From: Dehalococcoidia bacterium
GTDB taxonomy: Bacteria > Chloroflexota > Dehalococcoidia > Bin125
Direction of reading: 5' to 3'
Assembly (NCBI GenBank): GCA_965220315.1
Contig: CBDCPP010000002.1
Coordinates: 579,088-643,087, forward strand
Length of the DNA stretch: 64,000 nucleotides
In this document: positions 22,790 to 42,178 of the stretch, one piece after another
Position numbering within the stretch: position 1 is the stretch's first letter
Layout of the letters: each line of letters opens with the position of its first letter
Program-made: the position numbers and the translations under genes
Notes under the pieces: generated by a model
What the model saw: the letters and a program-made list of their open reading frames with translations, nothing else
Databases searched by the model: none
What the model was told of the DNA's origin: nothing

Positions 22790-24370
22790 CTAGTCGCGTC
22801 CGCTGCGCAAAGCGCGTCCCGGCAGGGCGCCGGTGTGCGTGCCGCGATCGATCACGACACGGCCGTTGACGATGACATAGTCGATCCCGGCCGGATATGC
22901 GCGCGGCATCTGGTGAGTTGCACGCGCCTCGACCGTCTCCGGGTCGAAAATCACGATGTCCGCCTTACAGCCGTCGCGCAAGAGACCGCGATCGCGGAGA
23001 CCCAGGCGCCGGGCGGGAGCGGAGGTCATCTTGCGGATCGCCTCCGGCAGGGAGAGATGGCCTTCCTCGCGCACGAAGCGGCCCAGAACTAGGGGGAAAC
23101 AGCCGTAGGTTCGGGGGCTGGGCCGGTCGCCGAAGACGATCGCATCGCTGGCGATCATCCCCTGCGGGTGGGCCACGAAGTGCGGGATCGTGGCTTCGGT
23201 CACCCACGCCCCGACCCAAGTCACGTGCAGCTCCTCCTCAAGGAGAAGGTCCAGCAGCGCATCCGCCGGCTCCTGCCGGCGCATCGCCGCGATCTCCGGG
23301 ACCAACCGCCCGTCATAGGGCGCGTTCTCCGGCCGGCGGAACGAGGTCAGCCAGCCCACCTCCCAGCGCAGCACCCGTTCCTTGCTGGTCAGCGCTTCCT
23401 TGATCCGCGCGCGGTCATTGGGATTGCGCAACGCTTCCATGAGGCGCTCGGGGCCGCCCTCTTTCGCCCAGTTCGGGAGCAAGATCGTGGCGGTCGTGGA
23501 AGAGTAAGGGTAGGTGTAGCAATCGAAAGTGACATCGCGTCCGTCAGTGCGAGCGGCATCGACGAGGTCCAGATACGCCTCGGCCGCGGCCGGACTGCCG
23601 AGCGGCTGATAGTAGTGCGTGAAGTGGACGGCTCCCCCGCTCATGCGCCCAATATCGAGCGCTTCTTCCCAAGGCTGGAGCGCTCCCTGGCGGCGAAGCT
23701 GCGAGCGAGTGTGCGTGTGGTAGAAGCCGTCGTGGCGAGCCGCCTCCGCCATCAAAGCCGCCAGCTCCTGGCTATCCGCGTACGAGCCCGGCGGATAGTC
23801 GAGCCCCGACGAGAGCGCCCAGGCGCCGTCCTCGATCGCTTCTCGCAATACGGCCCGCATCTCCGCGATCTCTCGCTCCGTTGCGGGCCGATCTTCCCAC
23901 CCGACCGCCCAGATTCGCAGCGGCGCGTTGCCCAGGATGAACGCCATATTGACCGCGACGGCGTTGTCGAGCTTGTGCAGGAGATCGGCCACGGTCAGCC
24001 AATCCGCCGGCGCCGGGGGGTAGCTGTTCAGACCGCAGTCCATCCAGATGAAGCGGTCGCGCTCCGCCGCGCTCTTGAACGGCGCGTGCGAGATCCCGTC
24101 GACCCCGATCAATTCGGTCGTGACGCCCTGGCGCACCTTGGGCTCATGTTCAGGGGCGCCGAGGATGGTCAGTCCGGCGTGGGAGTGGAGATCGATGAAG
24201 CCGGGGCAGACCACCAGGCCAGTCGCGTCGATCGTGCGCGCCGCCTGTAGCTCCGACGGGTCGCCGCGCTGCACGGCCAGCGTGTCGCCATCGACGATGA
24301 CGCTGCCGGCGAAGCTGGGTTCCCCGCTTCCGTCGATGATCGTGCCGTTGGTGATCAGCAGGTCGACCAT
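22790..24370 (-). CDS. N-acyl-D-amino-acid deacylase (D-aminoacylase) family amidohydrolase
   Basis: The internal ATG at 24370 has a GAGGGGA ribosome-binding site. The protein MVDLLITNGTIIDGSGEPSFAGSVIVDGDTLAVQ ... GFIDLHSH matches the metal-dependent amidohydrolase / D-aminoacylase N-terminal pattern. Confidence 0.8.
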   Translation of the reverse strand: MVDLLITNGTIIDGSGEPSFAGSVIVDGDTLAVQRGDPSELQAARTIDATGLVVCPGFIDLHSHAGLTILGAPEHEPKVRQGVTTELIGVDGISHAPFKSAAERDRFIWMDCGLNSYPPAPADWLTVADLLHKLDNAVAVNMAFILGNAPLRIWAVGWEDRPATEREIAEMRAVLREAIEDGAWALSSGLDYPPGSYADSQELAALMAEAARHDGFYHTHTRSQLRRQGALQPWEEALDIGRMSGGAVHFTHYYQPLGSPAAAEAYLDLVDAARTDGRDVTFDCYTYPYSSTTATILLPNWAKEGGPERLMEALRNPNDRARIKEALTSKERVLRWEVGWLTSFRRPENAPYDGRLVPEIAAMRRQEPADALLDLLLEEELHVTWVGAWVTEATIPHFVAHPQGMIASDAIVFGDRPSPRTYGCFPLVLGRFVREEGHLSLPEAIRKMTSAPARRLGLRDRGLLRDGCKADIVIFDPETVEARATHQMPRAYPAGIDYVIVNGRVVIDRGTHTGALPGRALRSGRD

Positions 24371-24515
24371 GGCCTCGTCCCCTCGGCCTCTCCCTCTGTC
24401 GGAGAAGGCTGCGCCAGCGACGCTCGCTGACTGTAGATCAGGAAGTTGCCGCGCGCGCGGGAGGAGTAGTCTGCGGAGACGCCCGGACCTCGTACCGCGT
24501 TGGATAGGAGCCGCG

Positions 24516-25490
24516 ATGGATGTCGACTTCAGCGACCACAACGGCAAGCTCGGACCTCCGGACGGCCGCGACTTCCCGCGCTTCATGGGGCCCACCACGT
24601 TTGCCCGGCTGCCGCGGATCGACCAGGTCACGAGCTGGGATATCGCCGTGGTCGGCGTGCCCTTCGATAGTGGGACGAGCTATCGGCCGGGCGCGCGGTT
24701 CGGGCCGCTCGGCATCCGCACGGGCTCGCGGCTGCTGCGGGCCTACCACCCGTCCCTCAAGGTCGAGCCCTTTCAGGGGCAGCAGGTGGTCGACGCCGGC
24801 GATATCGCCTGCAGCCCATACGTCATCGCGGACGCCCTCGAGCAGATCGAGGCCGCCGCGAGCGATCTGGTCGGCAAGGGCCGGCGGGTCGTCGCCCTGG
24901 GCGGCGATCATACGGTCGCGCTCCCGCTCTTGCGGACGGTCCACCGGGCGCACGGGCCGGTCGCCCTCGTCCATTTCGACGCACATCTCGATACCTGGGA
25001 CACCTACATGAAGGTGCCCTTCACGCATGGGACGCCGTTCCGCCGGGCTGCCGAAGAGGGATTGTTCGTCGTCGGCCAGTCGATCCACGTGGGGATCCGG
25101 GGGCCGCTCTACGGCGCCGAAGACCTGAGCGGGGACGCGGCGTTGGGCTTTTCAGTGCTGGGCAGCTGGGAGATCGAGGAGATCGGGATTGGCGGCGTGG
25201 TCGAGCGCGTGCGGCAGCGGGTCGGGGATCAGCCGGTGTACCTCTCGATCGACATCGACGTGCTAGACCCCGCCTTCGCTCCGGCGACGGGGACGCCCGA
25301 GATCGGCGGCTTTTCCACCAGGGAGCTGGCGGGAATCTTGCGGGGCTTCGCCGGGTTGGAGATCGTCGGCGCGGACGTCGTCGAAGTCGCGCCCGTGTAT
25401 GACCACGCGGAGGTGACCACGATCGCCGCAGCCAATCTCGTGTGGGAGATCCTGGGCCTGATGGCGCTCCGGCGTGCGGCGGTGCGGTAA
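24516..25490 (+). CDS. agmatinase/arginase-family ureohydrolase (agmatinase, guanidinobutyrase or related)
   Basis: An ATG at about 24515 is preceded by AGGAG. The protein shows conserved ureohydrolase blocks (GVPFDSGTSYRPGARFGP, GGDHTVALP, DAHLDT, SIDIDVLDPAFAPATGTPE). Confidence 0.85.
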   Translation: MDVDFSDHNGKLGPPDGRDFPRFMGPTTFARLPRIDQVTSWDIAVVGVPFDSGTSYRPGARFGPLGIRTGSRLLRAYHPSLKVEPFQGQQVVDAGDIACSPYVIADALEQIEAAASDLVGKGRRVVALGGDHTVALPLLRTVHRAHGPVALVHFDAHLDTWDTYMKVPFTHGTPFRRAAEEGLFVVGQSIHVGIRGPLYGAEDLSGDAALGFSVLGSWEIEEIGIGGVVERVRQRVGDQPVYLSIDIDVLDPAFAPATGTPEIGGFSTRELAGILRGFAGLEIVGADVVEVAPVYDHAEVTTIAAANLVWEILGLMALRRAAVR

Positions 25491-25501
25491 TCGGGAGACA
25501 C

Positions 25502-25560
25502 TACTATTGAAGGCACGGAGGGGTGGCAGAGCGGATGATTGCGGCGGTCTTGAAAACCGC
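25502..25560 (+). repeat. direct repeat: upstream region plus 5' half of tRNA-Ser through the anticodon stem-loop (att-like partial copy A)
   Basis: TACTATTGAAGGCACGGAGGGGTGGCAGAGCGGATGATTGCGGCGGTCTTGAAAACCGC matches 27023-27085 (upstream sequence plus tRNA positions 1-43) with a few mismatches. It then diverges abruptly. Confidence 0.7.
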
Positions 25561-25565
25561 AGTAA

Positions 25566-26936
25566 TCACGATCCATGAGCGGCCACACTTGCCGACTGTT
25601 CACGAAGGCTCGCAAAGTCATCGGCTGTGACGCGCTGCTCTGCGCTCGCCATGTCATCCTGGAACTTCACACCTTCGCCTTCCAGCACCTCGCGTGGATC
25701 GCGAACGTCCTCCGGGTCGGTCCATCGGAAGTCGTGGGCTATCTTGCCATCGCTGGTCAGTGCGCGGTACGCGGCTGGGCACTTCCAGCACTGTGTCACA
25801 TGCCGGCCCACGGCTCGGGCAGAGCTGCCAATCACCTCTGCCAGATCCTCGTAGGTAGTCCACTTTCCCGGATGAACGAGTGCTAGCAGACGATGGATTT
25901 CGGACCAGTCCCGTCCGAAGCCTGCCAGCTCGGCAAGGCTCGATCCATCCTCTGTGATCCATAGTCGTGGCCCTTGCAACTTTGATCGGTACTTCTCACC
26001 AGATGCTTCGCTAATGATGTGCCTGGCGAGGCCTGTGGGACTCCAAAAAGTACCATCGGGTTTCCACACCAACGGCCTACGGGGCCTGTTCCGCCAAGCA
26101 GCACATCCTCGATGACGATCGGTGCCGATCCATTCCTGCACTACGTCACGCACCGGCAACGGGAGTGCTGTCCATCTAAGCTCCAGTCGTTCACTATCCG
26201 GAAGCGTCCGCTCAGCGATGAGCGTAGTCACCGCGTTAGCCTCCCGCCGTCCCTGAGAACGCTCGACCGCCGCTCGTTGTTCGGCTCGTCCTGGTGTCAC
26301 GGTGAACTCTTCGACATCACTCACCGGCCACACCGATGTGACAATTAGGATCAGGTCGCGCTCTGTGCGATGGGCGCTGAACTCGATCAATTCGACATCC
26401 ACACCCATTTCGGTGAGCCACACCGCGCTGGCAGTGACTTGCGGACCGAAGGCCGTTGCTAGCAATATGATTCGGGGCCGCCGGAGTAGGTCTTGTTCGA
26501 GTGCACCACCAACGTGTTCTTCCAGCAACACTTGGGCGTCGTCGGCAGCTATCGCTGTTCCCCCCACCTTGGCGAGGTAAGTCGCGTGGCTTTCAGCAAG
26601 TTGCTCAGGAGTGAAACGTGAGGCGAACGCAGCGTACTTGATCGCCTGCATCTCAGTTGCATCGGGTGCCCGGCCGCGCTTCAATTCAGCAACTACCAGT
26701 CGGCCATCCGCGTCGATCCCTAACAAGTCGAGGCGGTCTGAAGCGGTGCCTACCCGACTCTGCCAGCCGCTGAACTCAAAGGTAACGATGCGGATGTCAG
26801 GCCCCAAGATTTCAGGATTCGTGCGAACCCACTCCTGCAAGTCAGCTCGCTCACGAAGGCTGGCTTCCGCGAGGCTGATCGGTTGGGCTCGCTGAGCCTC
26901 GCCCTTACCGACTGCGAATACGAGCTCTTCTGCCAT
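25566..26936 (-). CDS. fusion protein: N-terminal NucS/RecB-like PD-(D/E)xK nuclease domain + C-terminal MGMT-type DNA-binding domain lacking the catalytic Cys (ATL-like)
   Basis: The N-terminus has a DLLGIDADGRLVVAELKRGRAPDATEMQAIKYAAFA motif (D...ELK...Q..Y, as in NucS/DUF91 nucleases). The C-terminus has WTTYEDLAEVIGSSARAVGRHV...PAAYRALTSDGKIA...EVLEGEGV, the MGMT DNA-binding-domain pattern with PAAYR in place of PCHR. It is the sole gene between tRNA-repeat copies A and B. Domain calls are by motif only. Confidence 0.55.
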   Translation of the reverse strand: MAEELVFAVGKGEAQRAQPISLAEASLRERADLQEWVRTNPEILGPDIRIVTFEFSGWQSRVGTASDRLDLLGIDADGRLVVAELKRGRAPDATEMQAIKYAAFASRFTPEQLAESHATYLAKVGGTAIAADDAQVLLEEHVGGALEQDLLRRPRIILLATAFGPQVTASAVWLTEMGVDVELIEFSAHRTERDLILIVTSVWPVSDVEEFTVTPGRAEQRAAVERSQGRREANAVTTLIAERTLPDSERLELRWTALPLPVRDVVQEWIGTDRHRGCAAWRNRPRRPLVWKPDGTFWSPTGLARHIISEASGEKYRSKLQGPRLWITEDGSSLAELAGFGRDWSEIHRLLALVHPGKWTTYEDLAEVIGSSARAVGRHVTQCWKCPAAYRALTSDGKIAHDFRWTDPEDVRDPREVLEGEGVKFQDDMASAEQRVTADDFASLREQSASVAAHGS

Positions 26937-27040
26937 CGCAATCCCTCCTAGCGAGCGAGGTCATCTTCGTAGCGGCGTCTGATCAGGATCGCCAGGTTCA
27001 CAATACGACGCTCATGCGGGTACTACTATTGAGAAGGTGC

Positions 27041-27130
27041 GGAGGGGTGGCAGAGTGGATGATTGCGGCGGTCTTGAAAACCGCTAGGCGCCTCGGCGTC
27101 TCGGGGGTTCGAATCCCTCCCCCTCCGCCA
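27041..27130 (+). tRNA. tRNA-Ser (anticodon TGA), class II with long variable arm, encoded CCA
   Basis: A cloverleaf can be drawn by hand: acceptor GGAGGGG/CCCCTCC, U8, a 3-bp D stem, anticodon stem GCGGT/ACCGC with loop CTTGAAA (U33, anticodon UGA), an 18-nt variable arm, T arm GGGGG-TTCGAAT-CCCTC, discriminator G and CCA. Confidence 0.85.
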
Positions 27131-27636
27131 GTGCATAGGATTTCGTCGCGCTTATGGATAAGGCTATACCGGACCGAGATGAGACAGCCGATCCTGCCGA
27201 CATTTACGCATTCACCGCAGCCTTTCGTTGGTTGAAGCTTGAGGATCGAGTGGCCCTGAAAACGTGGTGATCAGCGCAATGCCAGATGGCACCCTTTAGG
27301 GTCTTCCTCGCGATCTGCCAATCCGCTGCCGTCATCCTCCTTGATGCGGTCAGCGCAGCCCCGCACAGGCGCGATCGAAGCCCCGGCTGAGAGAAATGAG
27401 ACCGTGGAGGGCTACCGAAGTCTTGAAAGAGAGGGTTGCCGGAGCTGACGTAGAGCAGGGTGTATCGTTAGGGTTGACACCACCTGTTGAGACGCCCATG
27501 GGCAGGGTAGAAGGTGCGATGCCCAATTACTGTGGTGGTCTCGAATATGGTGGACCAAGCCGTTGGCGAAATCGGGTGGGCCAGCCGATTGCCCTGGCAA
27601 TGATGGCTTCCCTGCCGCGAGCAATCCTCTGAAAGG

Positions 27637-28275
27637 ATGATGAAGATGGTTGATGAACGAGAGATCGGGAATCGGGTCAAAGGCAGTGTCATCGGGCTGC
27701 TCAAAGGCACGGGAGAGGTCGCTGCAACCGCTGTGGGTGAAGTCGCCAACCTCACCCGAACGACAGTCAAGGAAACTGGCGAGACAGGCGGCGCAGCCGC
27801 CAACCTAGCGGTGGGAGCCGTCAAGGGAGCCATTGACGCCGTTGGCGACATCGGCGGCGAAGCGGCACAGACCGCGGCCACGACCCTCACCGCGACGGTC
27901 GACGCGGCGACGCAAGTCGGAAGCTCCGTCGGAAACGCCGCCAAGGGAGCGGTGATCGGCGCCGTGGAAGGCTCCTCCGAGGTCGGGGCGGAGTCGGTGG
28001 AGGCGATCGGCAAGACCAGCCGGGCGGCCGTTAGTGAAGCGGCGATGATCGGTGCTGACGTCACGACTGCGGCCGTTGGAGCCGTTGAGGGCGCTATTGA
28101 GGCCGCCAAGAAGACGGGGATCGGTGTGGAGGACGCCGCGGCGGCGGCGGCAACCGGCGCCATTGAGGGCGCGGGCGAGGTCAGCGAAGCGGCTGCCGTA
28201 CGAGTGCGGCGTTCTGTGGAAGGGGTGATTCAAGGAGTGCAGGTGGTCGCCAAGACGGCGAGTGGGAAGAGCTAA
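27637..28275 (+). CDS. Ala/Gly/Val-rich repeat protein (LEA-like / amphipathic 11-mer repeats), function unknown
   Basis: The 212-aa ORF contains many GAV(I/E)GA(V/I)(E/D)A-type repeats. It is the only ORF between tRNA copies B and C. The gene call rests on repeat periodicity alone. Confidence 0.45.
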   Translation: MMKMVDEREIGNRVKGSVIGLLKGTGEVAATAVGEVANLTRTTVKETGETGGAAANLAVGAVKGAIDAVGDIGGEAAQTAATTLTATVDAATQVGSSVGNAAKGAVIGAVEGSSEVGAESVEAIGKTSRAAVSEAAMIGADVTTAAVGAVEGAIEAAKKTGIGVEDAAAAAATGAIEGAGEVSEAAAVRVRRSVEGVIQGVQVVAKTASGKS

Positions 28276-28590
28276 GCGGGTAGCGCTGAGGGCCTTGCGT
28301 CGCTAGTCGACAGTGAGGGGCCTCAGCCGTACCGAGGGCGCGAGGTTCAGCCCGCCTACGCGAGTAGCGTTCCTTGGCGAGCCGCTTCGCGGGGTTCGAT
28401 CAGTTTGGCACCGACTCCGCATGGGCTGAGCTGGTATGTGGTCCTCTTTAGCTATATCGACGGCTGTCACCCATTTGTCACCTAACTCGTCGACAGGAAG
28501 TATTGAAGGCAGGGACTTGTAGCACCGTTCCCTCGAGAAACGTGGGCGGAAGCGGAATCGTTGACACGCGCCGCCACCCAACAGATCCGC

Positions 28591-28657
28591 TGCGGCGGTC
28601 TTGAAAACCGCTAGACGCCTGAGTGTCTCGGGGGTTCGAATCCTTCCCCCTCCGCCA
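28591..28657 (+). repeat. direct repeat: 3' portion of tRNA-Ser from the anticodon stem to CCA (att-like partial copy C)
   Basis: TGCGGCGGTCTTGAAAACCGCTAGACGCCTGAGTGTCTCGGGGGTTCGAATCCTTCCCCCTCCGCCA matches tRNA positions 26-90 with about 6 mismatches. The 5' half is replaced by unrelated sequence, although TATTGAAGGCA from the tRNA upstream region persists at about 28512. Confidence 0.7.
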
Positions 28658-28845
28658 CACCAATGCAAGAAAACACTTATTTTATAGGGATAGTGACCAA
28701 TCTACGGTAAGTCATTATCACTTAGTATATCCCGCACGATTTGGCAGCCAGTGCGCCTCCTGGTTCTGGGCGACCGCAGCGCGCAGGTAAACGACGCCAC
28801 GCACAAAAGTGCTTGTTTGCTCGGGAACATCGGCCCACCGGCGGA

Positions 28846-29415
28846 TTAGATGAACATCTGCGGGAGCATGTCCCAACTCAGGATCCGGGCCACATCCCCG
28901 GAGAGCTTGGGGTCTGCGCTTTCCCCCGGCACATCCCAGAAGACGGTGCCGGGGTCCCCGTCGCCGATATCGGCCAGCAGCAACGCCAGCGCCTCGCTGC
29001 GGCGCTCGGGGGCGATCTCGAAGTAGTCACAGAGACTCGTCAGCGGGATCCCGAGCCGCGAGCGGCCGTTCACCCGCACCCGCACCCCCTCGAGGTTGCC
29101 GTGCTTCACATGCCAGGAGATGCTCTGCGGCGTCATGTCGACGAGGCGCGCCACCTGATCGCGGGAGATCACCACCTTCTGCTCGGGGGAGCTACCGGTG
29201 GAGGCGATCACCACCTCCTGCTCGGGGGAGTGGAAGGTGGGGGAGATGCGCGCGTCCGGCCGCGAGCCGTTCCACTTTTGGTTCGCAAGGAGTACCAGCA
29301 ACATGTTATCGCCCACGATGGCCGCGATCGCTTCCGCGGGGACGTGGTGCTCCAACGCGAGCGTCACCAGCCGCTCGATCTTTTCCTGCAGTCCTTCGTC
29401 TTCGGTATCGGCCAT
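28846..29415 (-). CDS. excisionase-family (MerR-like) HTH DNA-binding protein
   Basis: The C-terminal VISRDQVARLVDMTPQSISWHVKHGNLEGVRVRVNGRSRLGIPLTSLCDYF matches excisionase / HTH_17 domains. It sits next to the att-like tRNA fragment and downstream of the terminase genes. The start is taken as the internal ATG (ORF-track start 29469). Confidence 0.5.
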   Translation of the reverse strand: MADTEDEGLQEKIERLVTLALEHHVPAEAIAAIVGDNMLLVLLANQKWNGSRPDARISPTFHSPEQEVVIASTGSSPEQKVVISRDQVARLVDMTPQSISWHVKHGNLEGVRVRVNGRSRLGIPLTSLCDYFEIAPERRSEALALLLADIGDGDPGTVFWDVPGESADPKLSGDVARILSWDMLPQMFI

Positions 29416-29646: not shown

Positions 29647-31299
29647 CTAGACGGCCTCCGTGGCCAAGGGGTGGCCGTCGAGCGTTCCCACATGCACCCC
29701 GGGCGACGTCTCCATCTTGCGCAAAAAGGCCAGCACGTAGCGCCGCGTGTCCATGGCGTCGCCGTGCTGGTCGACGGTGCGGTTGGCGACGTACTTATCG
29801 CCCGTATTGGGGTTGCGCTGCAGGCGGCGCTTGTAGACGACGAACTCATGGCGCGAGTGCCGGCAGCGGCGGTCGATCGTGAACTTGTTGGCCTTGAGCT
29901 TCTCCGTCAGCAGCGTCCAGAGGGAGCGGTCGTTGTCGACCTTGCGCTCCACGTAGATCCCGTGCGGCGCCAGCTTCTGGGCGAGGGAGTAATTCATGGC
30001 CCCTTCGGAGGGATCGGGGCAGACGGCGAAGACGGGCGCGATGGCGTGCAGCTGCAGGACATAGGCCACGATCTCATCCAGGCCCACGGCATCCTTGCGA
30101 TAGAGCTCCCCGAATTGATGCAGGTGCCCGGTGCCGGAGACGCCATAGGGACAGACGGCCGTGGGGTCGCCGCCGCCGGCGCCGTAATCGATGCCGAAGA
30201 GCCGGATGCGGGCCTGCGACCAGCGGAAGGGCGGGTCGTGGGGATCGGTCGCCATGGTGCCGTCGACGTACTCCGGGTACCAAAGGGTGTTGTTCCCGCC
30301 CACGAAGGCATCGACAGCCGTCTTGGGGAACTCCTGCAGGAACTCGTACTCGGCCCCGATGTAGCCCTTCTTGCGGCCCTCCCACCAATCCCAGTTGATG
30401 GCGAAGCCGAGGCAGCCATGTTCCTCGTAGCCGGGCGCGACGCAGGGCCGGTCCTCCCAGGTTTCCATCGACCCATCCCCGCGGCGCCGCAGCCCGCCGC
30501 AGTCGGCGTGGGGCTGCAGGTGGATCCCGATCCACTTCCCCGCCTCGCGGTCATAGCGCCGCGGCCGCACCCACCAGGGGTACATGATGCCGTGCGTGCC
30601 GGGGATGAGGCCGTAGCGCGCCGCCCAGTAGCGGTTGGCGAAGAAATCGCCGATGTCGGTGATCTGCTCGGCGTTCTCGGGGATCTGCCCGCCGCTCGAG
30701 GTCGACACCTGAAAGAGCTGCTCGGCCTGGGGCTCGACGGCGGCGTAGGTTTCCTTGGCGTAGTTGTGCTTGGCGGCCTCATCCCAGAGCGCGATCTTGG
30801 TGGTATCGCCGCGGCCGGCGTCCTCGGTCGAGGGAAAGACATTGATTTCGCCGCCGCCCTTGATGTTGAGATCGAGCTGGGTGGGCGGCCGCTGCGGGGC
30901 CACCTGGATGTGCCCGGGCAGGTGGTCGTACATGTAGCGCTGCTTGCCATAGAGCTTCTTCGCCTCGCGCTCATTCTGCGAGAACTCCTGGTAGATCGCG
31001 CCCGGCTGGCCGTAGAGCACGTTCCAGAGAATGTAGCCGCCGATGTACCAGGACACGCCGATCTGCCGCCCCTTGAGGATGACGGCGCTGTGGCCGGCCG
31101 TCAGGATCTGGGGCAGCGTCCAGCCGGTGGGTTCGAAGATGGGATTGTCGAAGAAGGCCCAGTCCTCCATGAGCTGGGGCCCGGCCTCGCCCAGGATCTG
31201 CAGATGGTGCCGGAAAGCGCCGAAGGACCGCCGTGCGAAGGCCCGTTCGATGTCCTCGCCCGCCGCCAGGGCGACCTGGTCAACCAGCTTCCTTGCCAT
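29647..31299 (-). CDS. phage terminase large subunit (TerL; ATPase + nuclease)
   Basis: The ATG at 31299 has a GGAAGGA ribosome-binding site. The protein MARKLVDQV... has a Walker A-like ILKGRQIGVSW and a C-terminal nuclease region with conserved acidic residues. Length (about 550 aa) and architecture fit TerL. Confidence 0.75.
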   Translation of the reverse strand: MARKLVDQVALAAGEDIERAFARRSFGAFRHHLQILGEAGPQLMEDWAFFDNPIFEPTGWTLPQILTAGHSAVILKGRQIGVSWYIGGYILWNVLYGQPGAIYQEFSQNEREAKKLYGKQRYMYDHLPGHIQVAPQRPPTQLDLNIKGGGEINVFPSTEDAGRGDTTKIALWDEAAKHNYAKETYAAVEPQAEQLFQVSTSSGGQIPENAEQITDIGDFFANRYWAARYGLIPGTHGIMYPWWVRPRRYDREAGKWIGIHLQPHADCGGLRRRGDGSMETWEDRPCVAPGYEEHGCLGFAINWDWWEGRKKGYIGAEYEFLQEFPKTAVDAFVGGNNTLWYPEYVDGTMATDPHDPPFRWSQARIRLFGIDYGAGGGDPTAVCPYGVSGTGHLHQFGELYRKDAVGLDEIVAYVLQLHAIAPVFAVCPDPSEGAMNYSLAQKLAPHGIYVERKVDNDRSLWTLLTEKLKANKFTIDRRCRHSRHEFVVYKRRLQRNPNTGDKYVANRTVDQHGDAMDTRRYVLAFLRKMETSPGVHVGTLDGHPLATEAV

Positions 31300-31861
31300 C
31301 GTGTGTTTCCTTCCAGGCGGCCCATTCCTTATCCAGCGCCATCGTCTCCTTGGCCACCGCGCGCCAGCGCTCCTCCAGATGCTTGGGACAGGTCGCGAAA
31401 TCCCGCGTCGGCGCTCCGCCCGCGCCCACGACGGGCAACGCGGCCGCTTCCTCATCGAGCTCTTTCCGCTTGTCGATCAGGATCGCCAGGCTCGTGCTCA
31501 TGCTCTTCACCTCGAGCGCGGTGATGTCGTCCCGGGCCTCCCACCGCTCGAGCTGCCGCTCGATCAATCCCACTTCCCGCCACAGGATGTCCGCGATCTT
31601 TGACCGCAGCCGATCGCGCAACTCGTGGACCGCCCGTTTCCCACCCCGGCGCAGATCCGGCGGCGGCCGCACATCCTTCCGCTTCGCCCGCGGCTTCTCG
31701 CCCCGACGCTTCCGCGCCAGCGCGATGATGTGCCGGACTTGTTCGTAGCTCAGCCCCACCGCGTCCGCGATCGCCTGGTACGTCACCCGTTGGCCCGGCG
31801 GAGCGAACCACATCGCCTCCACCTGCTCCCGGTCCGCAGGCGTCACTTGTCGCTCGGGCAT
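31280..31861 (-). CDS. putative terminase small subunit / HTH DNA-binding protein
   Basis: The 193-aa protein has a sigma-70 region-4-like HTH (RVTYQAIADAVGLSYEQVRHIIALARKR) followed by a charged coiled region. It lies immediately upstream of terL and overlaps it by about 20 nt. Confidence 0.5.
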   Translation of the reverse strand: MPERQVTPADREQVEAMWFAPPGQRVTYQAIADAVGLSYEQVRHIIALARKRRGEKPRAKRKDVRPPPDLRRGGKRAVHELRDRLRSKIADILWREVGLIERQLERWEARDDITALEVKSMSTSLAILIDKRKELDEEAAALPVVGAGGAPTRDFATCPKHLEERWRAVAKETMALDKEWAAWKETHDGKEAG

Positions 31862-33789: not shown

Positions 33790-34038
33790 AGGTGCTCCCT
33801 TGCAACATGAGCGGAACTCGTTGCCACACCAGTCCTGCGAACGGAGCTACAAGGGAGCGTGGAGGCTCCGCTCGGTTCCATTCGCAGGGTGTGGCGGCAG
33901 GGACGCTACGGGATAAGTGAGGTGCCGTCTAGGCCCAGACGGTTTCAACGTAACCCGCGCCAGTGCTAGGCTCACGCGGGCCCGCGACCCTGGATGCCAG
34001 CGCCCGCGTAGCAGCCCCCTCTCAGAAAAGAGACGAGT

Positions 34039-34471
34039 AGTGAAACTTCGATTTATCTGGTTAGCCGAGAAGATCGAACCCCGACCCGATGGGAAGATCA
34101 ACATGACAGGGGTCTTCAATACGCTAAAGTTTTCAGCGTTTCCCGCGACTTATCCCCAGATTGATTGTCTACTCGAATTGTCTGTGCCACTGGAAGAACT
34201 AGAGGAAAGGAAGACGGATCATCAGATCCGTCTCACTCTGACCAACCCCGCCGGTCAAGTGGTCCAGCAGACACCGGACGACGTCGGCTGGTTTCAACTC
34301 CCCAGCCGTGCGGAAGGGCCTACGCCAAGACCCGGGGTGTTCGTGGTTCCGGCAGCACTACAACTACAGTTTCGGAACCTTCGCTTCGATCGCCCTGGGG
34401 ACTTCGCCCTGCGCGTAGATCTCGACAACACAAAGCTCTGGGAGACACCGGTTCTGATTGAACAGGCGTAA
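34039..34471 (+). CDS. hypothetical protein
   Basis: A GTG at about 34039 follows a GAGACGAG site. The 144-aa product is VKLRFIWLAEKIEPRPDGKINMTGVFNTLKF..., with no family recognised. Confidence 0.4.
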
Positions 34472-35167: not shown

Positions 35168-36214
35168 CCATGCCCTGGTCGCAGACGCAGAGAGGGCCTG
35201 CGGCGACGACTCCAAACGTACGGTCAATGCGGAAGAGCCCGGCCCATGGTCCATGGTGGGCCATCGGATCTCTTAAGACCCTACAGTGTGTACACATTGA
35301 GTACTTAATAAGGAAAGGATGGGCCGGGATGGACCATGGGCCACCGAGACACTCCCGGTTCCGGCCGCGGCCACACGCCGCATCGATCGCGGCGGTCGCC
35401 GCGCCGGGAGAAGGGATGCGCCGCCGCGCGTTCGTCGGGAAGGCCCGCTAGCGACCCGGGCGATCCCGCCGCCCACGCCGCCGCGCAGGGAGCAGTGGCC
35501 GCGCTGCGCGCGACTGTCTCTTTCGCCCCCGTTCCCGCCGAGCACGCCGCTCGCTGAACCGCCACGGCGCTGACCTAAGCACGGCCGGGGAGCGCCGCAA
35601 CACCTGGAACGGGGGCAGGCGCGGCCTGGGGCGTGAGGCCCTCCATCCGCGGCCGCGATCGCCGCGCGCCACGCGATCCGCCCGCGCCGGCCGCCGCGCC
35701 TGCCCCCTGTCGGTTCAGCGTGGCAGGCCCAGCGCCGCATCAAGGGGCGAGCAGGCAGCCCGCTCAAAAATCGGCGCGAAGAACGCACGGTAGGCCTGCC
35801 CCCTGGACGCGGCGCATCTGGGAGGCGGCGGCGGTGGCCATGCCTCCTGCTATGGGTTTGCGCTCCATGTGCACCCTGCGCAGCCCGCTCCGCGACAACC
35901 CATCTCCGAACGCGACAGCCCCTCGCCCAGCGCAGGCGCAAGCATGTTCGGCTGCGCTGGAGGACCAGCGCTGCCGATGCTCGCCTGCACGTCCTGGTCA
36001 AGGGTGCGGCTACGCCCACGCCGGAGGACCGGCGCGCCCTTGACCAGGACGGGACGGAAACCTGCCTGCCTGGTTGCCCGATCGTATACCCCGGCCTCAA
36101 GAGTGAAGGCTACGCCCAGGCCGGAGGACCGGCCTGCTCTTGACCCCGGAGTCATGGGGACAAGCGACCAGGCCGGCGACGGGAGCCGGAGGGATAAGGG
36201 AAAGGGACCCAACC

Positions 36215-37351
36215 ATGACCGACCGCCAACACCACGAGGACGACTGCAGCGAATGCGGAGGCACCGGCATCGCACAAGAGGCCGCCATCCCAGTGCCCGG
36301 ACCCGATGGCTACTGCCAGCCCCGCCAGGGCACTGGCCAGACCAGGGAGGACCCAGTGACCACGACCGACGACACGCCAACCATCAACCTCCACCGCGAC
36401 TGCTGCCCCGACGCAGCCATCGAGAACGACCCACCCGATCCGGACACGCACCTGGCCTACGAGGTCGACCCGCCTGAGGTCCAAGCCACGGGAATCATCC
36501 TCAAGTTCGACACCGATGGGACCTACCAACGCATCGAGCAGACGGGCCCCCTTGGCCTCGAGCTGATGCAAAAGCTCGTCGACGGCTACATCGAGCGCGT
36601 CATCACCCCCAGCTTCGACCTTTGGGTGAACGAAGAGGGGCTCATGCGCGACGACTTCGAGCCTAACATCGGGGCCAGCTACCTACTCGGCAAGCACGGC
36701 GCCCCCAACACCATCATCCTCGGACCCGCCTTCATCGCCGCCAGCAACGACGATGGAGAGAGCGTGCCCGCACCCACCGAGGTGATCGACATCTGCCTCG
36801 CCAGCCTCCACCAACTCGGCTACACGCAGGGAACGGAGAGCGCTGGCTGCGACGAGTGCGGCGGACTCTGCGACAACGACCACCGGCCCATCGCAGGAGG
36901 GAGCGGTGCATCCCCCGAAGGCACGGCCACCGTCGCCATATCAGCCGAGGTCCTCATCGTCGTCCCGCTCGAGCGCGGCGAACGCGCTGCCCTCGCCCTC
37001 AACAACAACGCTGGCAGCGACGCCTGGTCCCGCGTCGTCGAGAACGCCTACACCCGTCTCTCCATACAGATCGACGGCGTCCACCAGCCCGCCGAAGACG
37101 TTGCCTGGGGCCAGCCCTTTGTTGTAGCAAGCCCGCCACCCATCGCCGGAGGCGCGGCCATCACACTCCCCTCCAACGTCACGATGGACCAGGTCCTGGC
37201 CCTGGTCGAGGCCGACGACAACCTGGGGCTCTGCACCCACTGCGGCGCCGAGGCCAGCGGCATCGAGCCGGACGCCAACGCCTACGCCTGCGAGGACTGC
37301 GGCCGCAGCGCCGTCACCGGCGCCGAAGGCCTGCTGCTGGCCCTGGTCTAG
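36215..37351 (+). CDS. DUF3846-like phage/plasmid protein with two Cys-rich zinc-ribbon ends; contains two copies of the PIAGG linker motif
   Basis: The internal ATG at 36215 follows AAGGGAAAGGGA. The protein has an LKFDTDGTYQRIEQTGPLGLELMQKLVDGYIERV ... DLWVNEEGL (DUF3846-like) core. The motifs HRPIAGGSGAS (36886) and PPIAGGAAI (37141) precede C-terminal modules. The DUF assignment is from memory of the family, not a search. Confidence 0.55.
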   Translation: MTDRQHHEDDCSECGGTGIAQEAAIPVPGPDGYCQPRQGTGQTREDPVTTTDDTPTINLHRDCCPDAAIENDPPDPDTHLAYEVDPPEVQATGIILKFDTDGTYQRIEQTGPLGLELMQKLVDGYIERVITPSFDLWVNEEGLMRDDFEPNIGASYLLGKHGAPNTIILGPAFIAASNDDGESVPAPTEVIDICLASLHQLGYTQGTESAGCDECGGLCDNDHRPIAGGSGASPEGTATVAISAEVLIVVPLERGERAALALNNNAGSDAWSRVVENAYTRLSIQIDGVHQPAEDVAWGQPFVVASPPPIAGGAAITLPSNVTMDQVLALVEADDNLGLCTHCGAEASGIEPDANAYACEDCGRSAVTGAEGLLLALV

Positions 37352-37598: not shown

Positions 37599-40500
37599 AT
37601 GACCACGATCACACGACTCGACACCCCCTGGGGACCCGCGCAGACCATCACCGAGCTCGCGCCCGGTGTCCGCATCGTCACCACCGCCAGCCACGGCGGC
37701 CTCCAGATCGAGGAGCCGCAATGGCTGGAGCTGCCCGCCGCCGTGCGGCGCACGTTCACCCGGCTGCACCCCAAGGGCTGGGCCGAGGAGGACTGCGAGA
37801 TGGCGATCGCCCTGGTCCTGCTGGGCCTGGCCGAGCACCCCTACTTCGGCGGCCCCGACTCCAAGGTCCGCCGCGCGGCGATCGGCATCGCCAACTTCTT
37901 CGAGACCTACCACCCCTGCCGGGAGCCCCTCGCGGCCTTCAAGCCCATCGCCGGGGGCAGCGGCGCCGAGGCGTGCGCGCACCGGCACGTGCTCTCCCTC
38001 CGGTGTCCCGACTGCGGGCAGACCATGCACCGCACGATCGCCGAGGTCGTCCGCTGCCACCCCTGCCGGCAAGCCGATGGTCTCGGCCACGCCCGCGTGA
38101 CGCAGGTCGAGCGCACCGAGGAAGCCTGGGACGAGCAGCTCCGCCAGCAAGCCAGCGCGCCCGTCCTGGCGGTCGCCCGCGAGCACTACGCCTCCCCCGC
38201 CCAGACGCCCTATCACTGCGAGGAGCTGGCCGCGCGGGAGCAGGAGCTCTACCACTGCACGACCCGCGAGCTCGAGCAGATCTGCCTCGACCTGGACATC
38301 CCGATCCGGACGCCCGAGGGCTGGAGCATCCCCACCGAGCCCGCCTACGTCGCCCACAACGAACAGCGCATCCACCTCGCCCAGGCGAGGGAGCGCGCCT
38401 ACCTCGAGTACTACAAGACCACCGTCGGCGGCCCGCCGATCGCCGGAGGGAGCGGAGAGATCGACACCATGCGTATCACATTCACCCCCAGTTGCAGCTG
38501 CGGCGCGACATCGCCCGGCTTCGACCGCCAAGACGAGGCCCGGCTGTGGGCCCTCCACCACATCGAGGAGCGGCACCTGAACGACCCCGAGCCCGAGCCC
38601 TTGCACGAATACCAGATCCACGTCCGCGAGACCGTGATCATGGACCGCTGCTACGGAGTCCGCGCCGCCAACGAAGAGCAGGCCAAGGACAACAACCAAG
38701 CCGACTGGGAGTGGCTCAACGAATCCGAAGTCGACACCACCGCCACCCAAGTCACCGAAGTGCGGCACCTGAGCGGAGCCGGCTGCGCAGGGTGCACCGC
38801 CGAGCAGAAGCCCATAGCGGGAGGCAGCGGCGAAGAGCAACCGATAGTCCCATGCGTCGCCCCCACCGACAGCGACGACGAGACCGAGCTACTCCACGAG
38901 TTCACGGTCGACGCCAACGACACCATCATCAGCGACCGCGTCTACAGCGTCTTCGCCCACAGCGAGGACGACATTCGGCAAGAGCTCGGCGAGTGGGATT
39001 GCTCGAGCCAAGGCGACGAGACGCTCCTCTCCCGCGAGCTGACCAGCATCGACCATTACCCCCCAGGCTGCCGCGCCTGCCAGGAAGCGCAGATGCTGCA
39101 GCCCATCGGGGGCGGCGCCGTCCGCAACCCCAAGCTCAAGTGGACCGCGCGCGGCCGCGGCGGCAGCCGGGAGTTCCGCGCCCTGCCCTACGTCATCTTC
39201 CACCCCTATGACGAGTCCCGCATGGGCGCCGGCGGCGGGGGCGGCATCCCCGTCTCCGACCAGTGGCGGCTCCACGTCGAGGGCGAGCCCGTTCGCTACT
39301 CGCGCAAGGATGGCTGGAGCGGGAAGAGTGAGACCCTCGGCACCTTCACCATGCTAGCCGCGGCCAAGGCCCGGGCCCAGGCCCACGCCGACGCCCGCTC
39401 CATCGAGCACCAGCAGCTCAACGAACAGCTCGGCCTCAAGCCCATCGCGGGAGGGAGCAGCGAAGGGGACTCCCCCTTCGTCCAGTGCTGGCCCATCGCC
39501 GAGTACTTCGCTGCCCTCCCCGAGGAGGCATTGCGGCAGCAGATAGGAACCTACAGCCCCGGCAAGAACTTCAAGCCGTGCTGCGTCGGCGCCCACCTGG
39601 CGTTCTTCCTCGGGACGGAGCTCCTCACGCGCAATCTGCTCGCCCCCTACCACGACTTCCTCGATGGCGAGAAGGCCCTTGCTGAGCAGCTCAACCTCGA
39701 CCCGCACACCGTCAGCACCCTGCTCTACGCAGCCGGAGCCGACACCAACCCCTTCGGCTATCGCCAGTGGCCCGTGCCGCCGGCGCAGGTGTTCACCAAC
39801 CTCCTGACGATCGAGAAGATCCCGCGATCACACGAAGCGGGACCCATGCACTCCGCCGCCATCGATGCGTACAAGCAGAGCCAAGCGCTCAAACCGATCG
39901 CGGGCGGGAGTGGGGAAGAGGAACCCATCCCCGGCTGCGAATGGTGCGATCCCGATCCGGATCCGGATAGCCCGAATCCACCCGACGCCATCGCCTCCGG
40001 CGCACAGCGCCTCGAAGAAGCAAAGAACGCCCTCTCGGACGTCTTCCACGTCATGGACGAGCACGCCCTCGACAACAAGCGCGAACCATGGCTGCACCAG
40101 CTATGGGACGCCCGTCAAACCATCGACTGCATCCAAGAGAACGCACCGGGCTGGGAGGAGCCGACCATCAAGCCCATCGCGGGAGGGAGCGGCGAGGAGG
40201 AACCCCCGCGGCTCACCACCCGCGAGCGCAAGGAGCGCCGCCTCAAGCGACGCCTGGACTGGGCCGAGAGCCGCGAGCACAAAGCCGAGCAGACCCGCAA
40301 GGCGGCCGATGCCGCCGTCGCCGGGATCCCATTCGGTCAACCCATCCTCGTGGGACACCACAGCGAGAAGCGCCACCGCCGCGCCATCGACCGGCACGAC
40401 CGCAACTTCTTGAAGACGGGCGAGCACTTGCACATGGCGGACCGCCACCGCCGCCGGGCGGCCGGGATTCAGGAGCAGCTGAACCGCTCCATCTACTCGG

Positions 40501-41650: not shown

Positions 41651-42178
41651 TGAACAACCGCAGCACCCACGCCACTACCAGGACCCGAGGACCGCCAAGC
41701 TCCCTCTCCCTCCCTCGATAAGAAACAAAGCCCAGCCCTACCCGCGCCCAGCCAACTTAAGACCGTGGGCCTCGCACCCCGGCCGCGATTCCCCGGGGAA
41801 ATCCCCCAGGGGCAGACGGTTTCGCGCGCGGAGGGCCCGCTCAGGGGGGCGGTTTCGGGCGATCGGGCCCCGATCACGCCGCCGGCGCCCGCCGCGGGCA
41901 TCCACAGCAGGGGCCTTGTGGGACACGCGATCGAGGGCGTGGGGGCCCGCCAGCCACCGCTGAGCGGCTCCTGGAGGGAAATTCGGGGGTTCGAGGCTGG
42001 AGGAGCGGCCGATATCCGCCTTTCCGACCGGCGGATGTGCGTGCGCCTCAGGCCCAGTGTCAAGTAGCTTTACACGTGATCCATGCCGCCGCGTGTGGCG
42101 AAATCGAACGGGCGCCCTGCGATCGAGGTTGCCAGCAGGAAAGCCTTCCGTACCATGTTTCCTGAAAACGGAGAGCCG

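What the first reader, a model, noticed from the sequence alone, without database searches (positions are those of the whole stretch)
25566..26936. Single-gene cargo islet encoding a NucS/RecB-like nuclease fused to a non-catalytic MGMT/ATL-like alkylguanine-binding domain
The 456-aa protein combines an N-terminal PD-(D/E)xK nuclease motif of the NucS/DUF91 type (DLLGIDADGRLVVAELKRGRAPDATEMQAIKY) with a C-terminal MGMT-type DNA-binding domain. In that domain the PCHR cysteine is replaced (PAAYR), as in the alkyltransferase-like damage sensors.

This nuclease–sensor combination is not one I recognise. A sensor domain that binds O6-alkylguanine-like or other modified guanines, coupled to a nuclease, would suit either a damage-directed endonuclease or a defense nuclease aimed at modified (for example deazaguanine or alkylated) phage DNA.

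It is the only gene in a 1.47 kb insert bounded by partial tRNA-Ser repeats, so it was mobilised.
Basis: partly seen in the sequence, partly recalled or inferred. Interest (0 to 1): 0.7.

Follow-up and report, generated by a model that had tools for sequence, protein, structure and literature searches.

The report
Nuclease fused to two DNA-sensor domains
A small acquired gene next to a tRNA-Ser gene encodes a DNA-cutting enzyme fused to two DNA-reading domains, one a non-catalytic "damaged-guanine flipper"; it is probably an anti-phage nuclease, and no member of its family has been tested in any paper I could read.

Summary
ORF 25566-26936(-) encodes a 456-aa protein with a NucS-like PD-(D/E)xK nuclease. 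Its catalytic residues D70, E84-x-K86 and Q97..Y101 are invariant in 40 homologs. The C-terminal MGMT-fold domain has Ala389 where the acceptor cysteine should be. Its best solved relatives are the alkyltransferase-like proteins Atl1 and vpAtl.

The protein is less unprecedented than implied:
- The nuclease part matches PADLOC phage-defence candidate PDC-S11 (E=1e-47).
- Several hundred ~450-aa proteins with the same fusion exist in Chloroflexota and Actinomycetota, annotated "MGMT family protein" or "Atl1".
- I found no characterised member.

The islet claim is supported. A 1,524-bp cassette lies between the intact tRNA-Ser and a displaced copy of its leader plus 5' half. It has low GC3 (0.61 against 0.72-0.90 in neighbours). 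More distant relatives (L086, L087) have the unoccupied site. The insertion is old: three related MAGs share it, and dN/dS is about 0.25. It carries no integrase.

Best reading: a stand-alone, sensor-coupled (Type IV-like) defence nuclease. The function is inferred, not shown.

The parts
25566..26936 (-). 456-aa gene: NucS-like nuclease, RAMA-like domain and ATL-like domain
   Evidence: ORF. 455 homologs, with the full-length fusion conserved. dN/dS about 0.25 against orthologs in L002, L003 and L006. AF2 model has mean pLDDT 86.
26322..26864 (-). PD-(D/E)xK nuclease domain of NucS/DUF91 type (aa ~25-205)
26634..26738 (-). Catalytic core motif, aa 67-101: D70, E84-L-K86, Q97-x3-Y101
   Evidence: D70, E84, K86 and Q97 are invariant and Y101 is conserved in at least 90% of the 40 homologs. 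The stretch aligns to the EndoMS and NucS catalytic region.
26214..26294 (-). Long linker helix (aa 215-241) after a disordered stretch (aa 207-221)
   Evidence: AF2 secondary structure and pLDDT profile.
25917..26204 (-). RAMA-like DNA-binding domain (aa ~245-340), assigned by fold only
25662..25904 (-). Alkyltransferase-like (ATL) MGMT-fold domain (aa ~345-425). It keeps Y362, R374 and R391 and has Ala389 in place of the PCHR cysteine.
25572..25625 (-). C-terminal helix (aa 438-455), poorly conserved
   Evidence: AF2 model and alignment A1.
25499..25560 (+). Displaced copy of the tRNA-Ser leader (with a -10-like TACTAT) plus the tRNA 5' half. The tRNA part is 25517-25560 and ends at the 3' side of the anticodon stem. 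This is the left boundary of the cassette.
   Evidence: Repeat D2/D3. Alignment of all copies. Conserved in L002, L003 and L006.
27041..27130 (+). Intact tRNA-Ser(TGA). Its leader plus 5' half (27019-27084) is the right-hand repeat copy.
   Evidence: ARAGORN. Rfam tRNA 55.7 bits. Repeats.
25561..27018 (.). Unique part of the inserted cassette. Repeat spacing is 1,524 bp. GC is 0.60 against 0.65 for the window, and gene GC3 is 0.61.
   Evidence: Composition. Absent at the orthologous site in L086 and L087, which have a single intact tRNA-Ser 554 nt from the amidohydrolase gene.

Best explanation
The gene encodes a stand-alone, three-module DNA endonuclease.

Modules:
- An N-terminal NucS/DUF91-type PD-(D/E)xK nuclease (shown by sequence and fold).
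- A RAMA-like domain, which in solved RAMA structures grips the DNA backbone without sequence specificity (fold shown; role inferred).
- A C-terminal alkyltransferase-like (ATL) domain. It keeps the base-flipping Tyr and Arg finger and the PCHR arginine but has no acceptor cysteine (shown).

Proposed mechanism, all inferred: RAMA and ATL load the enzyme on duplex DNA. The ATL module flips a guanine-type base into its pocket. Stable capture of an abnormal (alkylated or hypermodified) base licenses the tethered nuclease to cut nearby. This is the logic of Type IV modification-dependent restriction enzymes, here aimed at foreign (phage) DNA rather than at repair.

How the gene arrived (shown): it came as a 1.5-kb single-gene cassette inserted at the anticodon-loop region of tRNA-Ser(TGA). 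The cassette brought its own leader plus tRNA 5' half, so the tRNA stayed intact and the host's original 5' half was displaced. It has no integrase, so it is either a remnant or was moved in trans.
For: Architecture:
- Catalytic residues are invariant.
- ATL: Atl1 and vpAtl are the best PDB relatives over the whole domain, and Ala389 replaces the cysteine.

Lean towards defence:
- PADLOC candidate PDC-S11, E=1e-47.
- Sporadic distribution: 234 loci among representatives of 185,579 species.
- No conserved partner gene. A minority of neighbours are strong defence matches (SoFic x3, Zorya II, DrmD, type I and III R-M, dGTPase), and two are integrases.
- In Chloroflexota the gene's GC3 is far below its neighbours, for example 0.60 against 0.85 and 0.75 against 0.94.
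- Nuclease-domain relatives occur on 353 plasmids.
- RAMA domains are typically fused to restriction nucleases and methylases (PMC4738411).
- Sensor modules are shuffled around one nuclease: nuclease+RAMA-like in 73 of 150 representatives, with ATL added in 16, nuclease+ATL in 2, plus a canonical Pfam RAMA or DUF4268 in place of ATL.
- In related MAG L003 an AAA_15 ATPase + DUF3226 pair (not confirmed as a defence system) is inserted at the same tRNA.

Gene is functional: dN/dS is 0.24-0.28, with all three domains constrained.

Cassette: repeats, empty site in L086/L087, shared arrangement in L002, L003 and L006.
Against: - No biochemical or phage-challenge data exist for any member in any paper I could read. 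One preprint that mentions PDC-S11 six times could not be opened. The other literature on PDC-S11 is correlational.
- Most neighbours of the 33 full-length loci are ordinary metabolic genes.
- The Arg finger is Gln in most actinobacterial members, so base flipping may not be universal in the family.
- The ATL domain is dispensable in close relatives: P0028 is 70% identical and 346 aa, without it.
- MPND and CcrM RAMA domains showed no base or 6mA specificity in structures (PMC9963953).
- The short form in Acidimicrobiaceae has native GC3 and looks vertically inherited.
- Only 2 phage records carry relatives.
Confidence: 0.5

Rival explanations
1. Alkylation-damage repair endonuclease. The ATL module finds O6-alkylguanine in the host's own DNA and the fused nuclease incises next to it. 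This would short-circuit the usual hand-off from ATL to nucleotide excision repair.
For: - The ATL domain keeps Y362, R374 and R391, and is closest to Atl1 and vpAtl, which bind O6-alkylguanine (ATL function is from established knowledge).
- NucS itself is a repair nuclease.
- Most neighbours are housekeeping or metabolic genes.
- MGMT domains are known to be fused to other repair enzymes, such as Ada and the AGT-EndoV fusion of Ferroplasma (my own knowledge, not tested here).
Against: - The distribution is very sporadic, with foreign GC3 in Chloroflexota.
- The gene arrived on a tRNA-linked cassette.
- The nuclease module is catalogued as defence-island-associated PDC-S11 and is plasmid-borne.
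- The ATL module is swapped for RAMA or DUF4268, or simply absent, in close relatives. That pattern is atypical for a dedicated repair enzyme.
Confidence: 0.2
2. Defence or conflict nuclease in which RAMA-like and ATL-like domains are only generic DNA anchors. The trigger would be something else, such as free DNA ends, branched or mismatched structures as for Shedu or NucS, or over-replication of foreign DNA.
For: - Solved RAMA domains contact only the backbone (PMC9963953).
- The Arg finger is not conserved across the family.
- The ATL domain is dispensable in close relatives.
- The nuclease fold resembles SduA and HamA, which act without modified-base sensing.
Against: Tyr362 and Arg391 are invariant, and the whole ATL fold, including its C-terminal LExEGV segment, is retained under purifying selection (omega 0.29-0.51). 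The same ATL module has been fused to this nuclease in at least two arrangements, with and without RAMA.
Confidence: 0.2
3. Decaying remnant of a larger integrated element, with a gene that no longer does anything useful.
For: There is no integrase or other mobility gene in the cassette.
Against: - The ORF is full-length in four diverged genomes, with dN/dS about 0.25 and dS 0.14-0.30.
- Catalytic residues are invariant.
- Hundreds of intact homologs exist.
Confidence: 0.03

Closest known systems
PADLOC phage-defence candidate PDC-S11 (single-gene candidate; profiles of 347-379 positions)
   Same: Aa 6-238 match five PDC-S11 profiles, the best at E=1e-47. The most common family architecture, nuclease plus RAMA-like at about 340-365 aa, fits the profile length.
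   Different: Only profile positions 3-230 of 347 are matched. The window protein carries an extra C-terminal ATL domain. PDC-S11 is itself only a candidate: I found correlational mentions but no experiment.
NucS/EndoMS mismatch endonuclease (PDB 2vld, 5gke)
   Different: - It lacks the NucS N-terminal domain; matches start at NucS residue ~130.
- It scores 30.8 bits against the 216-bit equivalog cut-off.
- It has a ~40-aa helical insert and two extra DNA-binding domains.
Alkyltransferase-like proteins (S. pombe Atl1, PDB 3gva; V. parahaemolyticus vpAtl, 2kim/2kif; E. coli YbaZ)
   Same: - MGMT C-terminal fold without the acceptor cysteine.
- Tyr, Arg finger and PCHR arginine are kept in the window protein.
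   Different: - ATLs are small stand-alone proteins that hand lesions to NER (established knowledge). Here the domain is the C-terminal module of a nuclease.
- Ala replaces the cysteine, rather than Trp.
- There is a family-specific conserved set H348, H379, C383, C386.
- The Arg finger is Gln in many members.
RAMA-domain fusions to restriction nucleases and N6-adenine methylases (Iyer, Zhang & Aravind 2016, PMC4738411; structures of MPND 7YDT and CcrM 6PBD)
   Different: The window's domain does not match the Pfam RAMA HMM. hhalign to P0224's canonical RAMA is insignificant (probability 0.8%). The assignment therefore rests on fold plus a faint motif resemblance.
Type IV modification-dependent restriction enzymes built as sensor domain plus PD-(D/E)xK nuclease (MspJI, AspBHI, DpnI and winged-helix fusions, PMC11037411)
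   Different: The sensor here would be an ATL domain, which to my knowledge has not been reported in a Type IV enzyme. Modification dependence is untested.
Shedu SduA (DUF4263 nuclease; PDB 8ps4, 8ps5)
   Different: No PADLOC Shedu profile matched. The N- and C-terminal modules are different.
tRNA-linked genomic islets and integrase-less 'cis-mobilisable' elements (CIME)
   Same: A cassette bounded by direct repeats derived from a tRNA gene and centred on the anticodon stem-loop, with foreign composition and an empty site in relatives.
   Different: - The duplicated part is the 5' half plus leader, not the usual 3' part.
- The cassette is only 1.5 kb and holds one gene.
- No integrase was found in the cassette or among the window ORFs I scanned.

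Membership tests
NucS/EndoMS | RecB-like PD-(D/E)xK nuclease domain with D...ExK and QxxxY | tested here: met
NucS/EndoMS | N-terminal NucS dimerisation/DNA-binding domain, and whole-protein equivalog score | tested here: not met
   The match covers only NucS residues ~129-195. Score is 30.8 bits against the 216-bit cut-off.
NucS/EndoMS | Mismatch-specific double-strand cleavage | not testable with these tools
   Needs biochemistry.
MGMT/AGT (EC 2.1.1.63) | DNA_binding_1 (C-terminal) domain | tested here: met
MGMT/AGT (EC 2.1.1.63) | PCHR active-site cysteine (alkyl acceptor) | tested here: not met
   The aligned position is Ala389 (A388-A389-Y390-R391). It is a small residue or Pro across the family.
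MGMT/AGT (EC 2.1.1.63) | N-terminal MGMT domain | tested here: not met
   No such Pfam match. The N-terminus is a nuclease.
Alkyltransferase-like (ATL) | MGMT C-terminal fold lacking the cysteine but keeping Tyr (Atl1 Y25), Arg finger (R39) and the PCHR arginine | tested here: met
Alkyltransferase-like (ATL) | Small stand-alone protein that recruits NER | tested here: not met
   The domain is aa ~345-425 of a 456-aa nuclease fusion.
Alkyltransferase-like (ATL) | Binds O6-alkylguanine in DNA by nucleotide flipping | not testable with these tools
   Needs binding assays.
RAMA domain (PF18755) | RAMA fold | tested here: met
RAMA domain (PF18755) | Match to the Pfam RAMA profile | tested here: not met
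   No hit at E<=10 for seven family members' middle domains. hhalign to a canonical RAMA gives probability 0.8%.
PADLOC PDC-S11 | Match to PDC-S11 profiles | tested here: met
   Best E=1e-47, aa 6-238 against profile positions 3-230 of 347. The match is partial at the C-terminal end.
PADLOC PDC-S11 | Demonstrated anti-phage activity | not tested
   Only correlational mentions were found. One preprint that mentions PDC-S11 six times could not be opened.
Type IV modification-dependent restriction enzyme | Modified-base sensor fused to a nuclease, with no cognate methylase | tested here: inconclusive
   The architecture fits and no conserved neighbouring methylase was seen. That the ATL or RAMA-like domains read a modification is inference.
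Type IV modification-dependent restriction enzyme | Cleavage depends on a DNA modification | not testable with these tools
   Needs biochemistry or phage assays.
tRNA-linked genomic islet | Direct repeats derived from the tRNA gene flank the insert | tested here: met
   25499-25560 and 27019-27084.
tRNA-linked genomic islet | Unoccupied site in related genomes | tested here: met
   L086 and L087 have a single intact tRNA-Ser next to the orthologous amidohydrolase gene, with no nuclease and no duplicated half.
tRNA-linked genomic islet | Integrase within or next to the element | tested here: not met
   The nuclease gene is the only gene in the cassette. There is no Phage_integrase hit among the 20 window ORFs scanned.

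The most novel reading that the evidence does not exclude
The ATL domain, so far known only as a stand-alone sensor of O6-alkylguanine damage feeding NER, has here been recruited as the specificity module of a restriction-type nuclease. It would recognise a flipped, naturally hypermodified purine in phage DNA, for example 7-deazaguanine derivatives, 2-aminoadenine or another O6/N2/C7-substituted guanine. That would make this a new class of Type IV restriction enzyme, and the first link between the MGMT/ATL fold and antiviral immunity.
Probability: 0.25. Interest if true: 0.8.

Novelty: new variant of a known kind. Interest (0 to 1): 0.55.

Why it matters
If the ATL module really licenses the nuclease, two things follow.

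First, a DNA-repair damage sensor fold would have been co-opted for self/non-self discrimination. That would add a guanine-adduct or hypermodified-purine reader to the known sensors of modification-dependent restriction (SRA, EVE, winged helix, RAMA).

Second, it would give a function to several hundred proteins now annotated "MGMT family protein" or "Atl1", and to the ATL-bearing branch of the PDC-S11 candidate family.

Such an enzyme could also serve as a reagent for mapping alkylated or modified guanines.

The islet itself is a clean small example of a single defence-type gene captured at the 5' side of a tRNA gene. The cassette supplies its own tRNA leader and 5' half, which is the reverse of the usual 3'-end arrangement.

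Tried and rejected
- Sequence-level RAMA assignment: the Pfam RAMA HMM gave no hit for the middle domain of seven members at E<=10. hhalign against the canonical RAMA of P0224 was insignificant. Only the fold assignment stands.
- PHROGs: nothing meaningful.
- Literature: searches for ATL+nuclease+phage defence, NucS+MGMT+defence, "MGMT family protein" and ATL+restriction endonuclease+fused found no description of this fusion. A 2026 preprint that mentions PDC-S11 six times could not be opened under three identifier forms.
- tRNA linkage as a family trait: rejected. Among 80 genome loci, only the close relative L006 has a tRNA-Ser next to the gene.
- Conserved operon partner: rejected. No family occurs in more than 7 of 124 neighbouring genes.
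- Integrase that could move the cassette: none among 20 ORFs scanned in 27.6-63.8 kb.
- Consensus promoter and terminator scan of 25400-27250: no sites. The -10-like leader is therefore an observation only.
- Rfam: only the tRNA passes threshold in 25300-28900.
- "Second insert" 27131-28590: not a simple element. Its 212-aa gene is 91% identical to the gene that follows the tRNA in L002. The 3' tRNA fragment at 28591-28657 lies inside window-specific DNA. Its origin is unresolved.
- Pseudogene or remnant reading: rejected by dN/dS.
Full report
**1. Observation**

Both quoted sequence features are present.
- Pfam places an MGMT C-terminal domain (PF01035) at aa 346-423, just above its curated cut-off (28.2 bits against 27, E=1.7e-6).
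- NucS-type matches at aa ~29-102 are weak by sequence: Pfam NucS_C E=0.036, NCBIfam NucS E=1.4e-7 but 30.8 bits against a 216-bit cut-off, and PDB EndoMS E=0.048.

A single intact tRNA-Ser(TGA) lies at 27041-27130. A copy of its leader plus 5' half lies at 25499-25560, five bases beyond the gene's stop codon.

**2. Anatomy of the protein**

I aligned 40 full-length homologs at 45-90% identity (A1). Invariant or nearly invariant residues are:
- D67-R-L-D70, E84-L-K86-R87 and Q97-A-x-K-Y101. This is the PD-(D/E)xK triad plus the RecB-type QxxxY motif.
- In the C-terminal domain, Y362 and R391.

An AlphaFold2 model built on that alignment is confident (mean pLDDT 86). Its pTM is low (0.49), as expected for domains on flexible linkers; aa 207-221 are disordered.

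- The alkyl-acceptor cysteine is alanine.
- The Tyr (Atl1 Y25 = Y362) and the Arg finger (Atl1 R39 = R374) are present in the window protein.
- In most actinobacterial members the Arg finger is Gln.

- 7YDT is the RAMA domain of MPND, and the matched part of CcrM is its RAMA domain. Both contact the DNA backbone without base specificity (PMC9963953).
- RAMA was defined as a domain fused to restriction nucleases and N6-adenine methylases (PMC4738411).
- The assignment is by fold only. The Pfam RAMA HMM does not match, and hhalign to a canonical RAMA is insignificant, although a DG-x3-PT...G-x2-W-x5-G-x-L-x2-LA motif lines up by eye.

The architecture is therefore:
- NucS-like nuclease, aa ~25-205
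- linker helix
- RAMA-like domain, aa ~245-340
- ATL-like domain, aa ~345-425
- C-terminal helix

**3. The family**

The nuclease part matches five profiles of the PADLOC phage-defence candidate PDC-S11, the best at E=1e-47 over aa 6-238. I found no experiment on PDC-S11, only correlations with phage resistance in P. aeruginosa and haloarchaea. One preprint that mentions it could not be opened.

The word-indexed search found 455 homologs. Of the best 120, 108 carry both the RAMA-like and ATL-like domains. Sources name them "MGMT family protein" or "alkylated DNA nucleotide flippase Atl1".

An exhaustive search with aa 1-345 found 2,903 cluster representatives at E<=1e-3, and 177 at E<=1e-30. 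Among the best 150:
- 73 are nuclease + RAMA-like (about 340-365 aa, the length of the PDC-S11 profiles).
- 16 add the ATL domain.
- 2 have nuclease + ATL without RAMA, for example P0142.
- P0135 has two RAMA-like domains.
- P0224 has a canonical Pfam RAMA (E=1.4e-11) exactly where the window protein has ATL.
- P0126 has DUF4268 there.

A 346-aa protein that is 70% identical to the query lacks ATL altogether (P0028). The ATL domain is thus one of several interchangeable C-terminal modules on a conserved nuclease(+RAMA) chassis.

**4. Distribution and context**

In one-genome-per-species GTDB contigs, 234 loci encode relatives. The best 80 are Chloroflexota (Dehalococcoidia, Tepidiformaceae) and Actinomycetota.
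- A tRNA is adjacent only in the closest relative.
- There is no conserved partner gene. Among the 124 nearest genes at 33 full-length loci, the commonest families are metabolic (short-chain dehydrogenases, acyl-CoA dehydrogenases, ABC permeases).
- A minority of neighbours are strong defence matches: SoFic x3, Zorya II ZacA/B, DrmD, type I R-M, type III methylase, dGTPase, mads and BrxH. Two are integrases.
- In Chloroflexota the gene's GC3 is far below that of its neighbours, and it is often the lowest in the locus (0.60 against 0.85, 0.75 against 0.94, 0.73 against 0.95).
- The short form in Acidimicrobiaceae has native GC3.
- Nuclease-domain relatives occur on 353 plasmid records, none with the full fusion, and on only 2 phage records.

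**5. The islet**

Three related MAG contigs (L002, L003, L006; 88-92% nucleotide identity, syntenic) show the same arrangement: amidohydrolase, displaced 5' tRNA half, nuclease gene, intact tRNA-Ser.

Two more distant relatives (L086, L087) have an amidohydrolase 84% identical in protein, with EamA and luciferase-like genes on the other side as in L002. They have one intact tRNA-Ser 554 nt from the amidohydrolase gene, no nuclease gene and no duplicated half. That is the unoccupied site.

Features of the duplicated segment:
- It ends precisely at the 3' side of the anticodon stem in every copy.
- It includes about 18 nt of leader with a -10-like hexamer (TACTAT, TACGAT or TACAAT).
- The cassette therefore supplies a leader plus 5' half, which keeps the tRNA intact.
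- The displaced host half now points antisense into the 3' end of the nuclease gene.

The cassette has GC 0.60 against 0.65 for the window. It contains no integrase.

Orthologs in the four genomes have dS 0.14-0.30 and dN/dS 0.24-0.28. By domain, omega is 0.16-0.29 for the nuclease, 0.21-0.37 for RAMA-like and 0.29-0.51 for ATL. The insertion is old and the gene is maintained by selection.

"Mobilised" is therefore right in the sense of "acquired as a discrete cassette at a tRNA gene". It is not right in the sense of recent or autonomous movement.

The same tRNA is a hotspot on its 3' side too:
- L003 has an AAA_15/AAA_21 ATPase + DUF3226 pair there.
- The window has, beyond a conserved 212-aa gene, a block of at least 35 kb specific to the window. 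It starts near 28313 and carries a 3' tRNA-Ser fragment at 28591-28657.

**6. Mechanism**

Shown:
- An intact PD-(D/E)xK active site.
- A RAMA fold.
- An ATL-type domain without the acceptor cysteine but with the flipping residues.
- Purifying selection on all three domains.
- Accessory, horizontally moving gene behaviour.
- Membership of a catalogued defence-candidate family.

Inferred: the two C-terminal modules bind duplex DNA. The ATL module probes bases by flipping, as Atl1 does (established knowledge). Capture of an abnormal guanine-type base licenses cleavage by the tethered nuclease. This is the Type IV restriction logic.

I put about 0.5 on "defence nuclease with sensor modules", and about 0.25 on the specific claim that ATL reads a phage DNA hypermodification.

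Rivals:
- A damage-directed repair endonuclease (0.2).
- A defence nuclease whose C-terminal domains are only generic anchors (0.2).
- A decaying remnant, which effectively excludes.

**7. Comparison and novelty**

The protein is not a NucS ortholog: it has no N-terminal NucS domain and scores far below the cut-off. It is not an MGMT: it has no cysteine and no N-terminal MGMT domain. Nor is it a canonical ATL, because it is not stand-alone.

It belongs to the PDC-S11 nuclease family. It has the general "REase + RAMA" architecture described in 2016.

What I could not find described anywhere is the ATL domain as a module of such a nuclease. I rate it a new variant of a known kind. It is interesting mainly because it makes a testable link between the MGMT/ATL fold and immunity. 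Against that, there is no functional evidence, and the ATL module is optional within the family.

Noticed in passing
window 28591-28657 (context 28313-28740): A second tRNA-Ser scar: the 3' part of the tRNA, from the anticodon stem to the 3' end, 93% identical to the intact gene. It lies about 280 nt inside DNA that has no counterpart in the related MAGs and is followed by an AT-rich stretch. It shares the 21-nt anticodon stem-loop with the 5' scar at 25540-25560. Why it is separated from the intact tRNA by a conserved 212-aa gene is unexplained.
   Followed up: partly
window 28313-64000: Window-specific block of at least 35 kb that looks like a mosaic mobile element. It holds a terminase-like gene (29647-31455), DUF3846 (36140-37351), a DUF7007+DUF3560 protein (37599-40847), an SDH-type protease (48425-49276), DUF6941 (33917-34471) and a clostripain-family peptidase (61384-63825). 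No integrase was found among the ORFs scanned.
   Followed up: partly
window 42083-47440 (+): A 1,785-aa single polypeptide combining an Mrr-type restriction nuclease, a ResIII/helicase and an N6-adenine methylase. It looks like a Type ISP/IIG-like restriction-modification or related defence enzyme inside the same island.
   Followed up: no
window 51283-60141 (-): A 2,952-aa protein made of LRR, PKD, bacterial Ig and cadherin-like repeats. It is presumably a giant surface adhesin.
   Followed up: no
window ~24370-25494 (+): An arginase-family gene lies between the amidohydrolase gene and the displaced tRNA half. It is absent at this position in the three closest relatives (L002, L003, L006), so it is a second single-gene difference right next to the islet.
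   Followed up: partly
L003 6994-8779: In a related MAG, an AAA_15/AAA_21 ATPase plus DUF3226 gene pair (a possible defence pair, not checked) is inserted immediately 3' of the same tRNA-Ser. The locus appears to collect accessory genes on both sides of the tRNA.
   Followed up: no
window 27637-28275 (+): A 212-aa Ala/Gly/Val-rich protein with no Pfam match. It is 91% identical in L002 and always lies next to this tRNA in the close relatives. Function unknown.
   Followed up: partly
window 25777-25895 (-), aa 348-386 of the protein: H348, H379, C383 and C386 are invariant or nearly so in the ATL-like domain and have no counterpart in Atl1 or vpAtl. They may form a family-specific zinc site next to the base-binding pocket. 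I could not measure distances in the model.
   Followed up: no
window 25499-25570: The displaced tRNA 5' half keeps a -10-like leader (TACTAT) and is oriented antisense to the nuclease gene, ending 5 nt from its stop codon. It could drive an antisense transcript over the gene's 3' end. The consensus promoter scan found nothing.
   Followed up: partly
L047-L078 (Acidimicrobiaceae MAGs): The short form (nuclease + RAMA-like, about 340 aa) is present in many Acidimicrobiaceae species with the same GC3 as its neighbours. In that family it looks long-resident rather than recently transferred.
   Followed up: no
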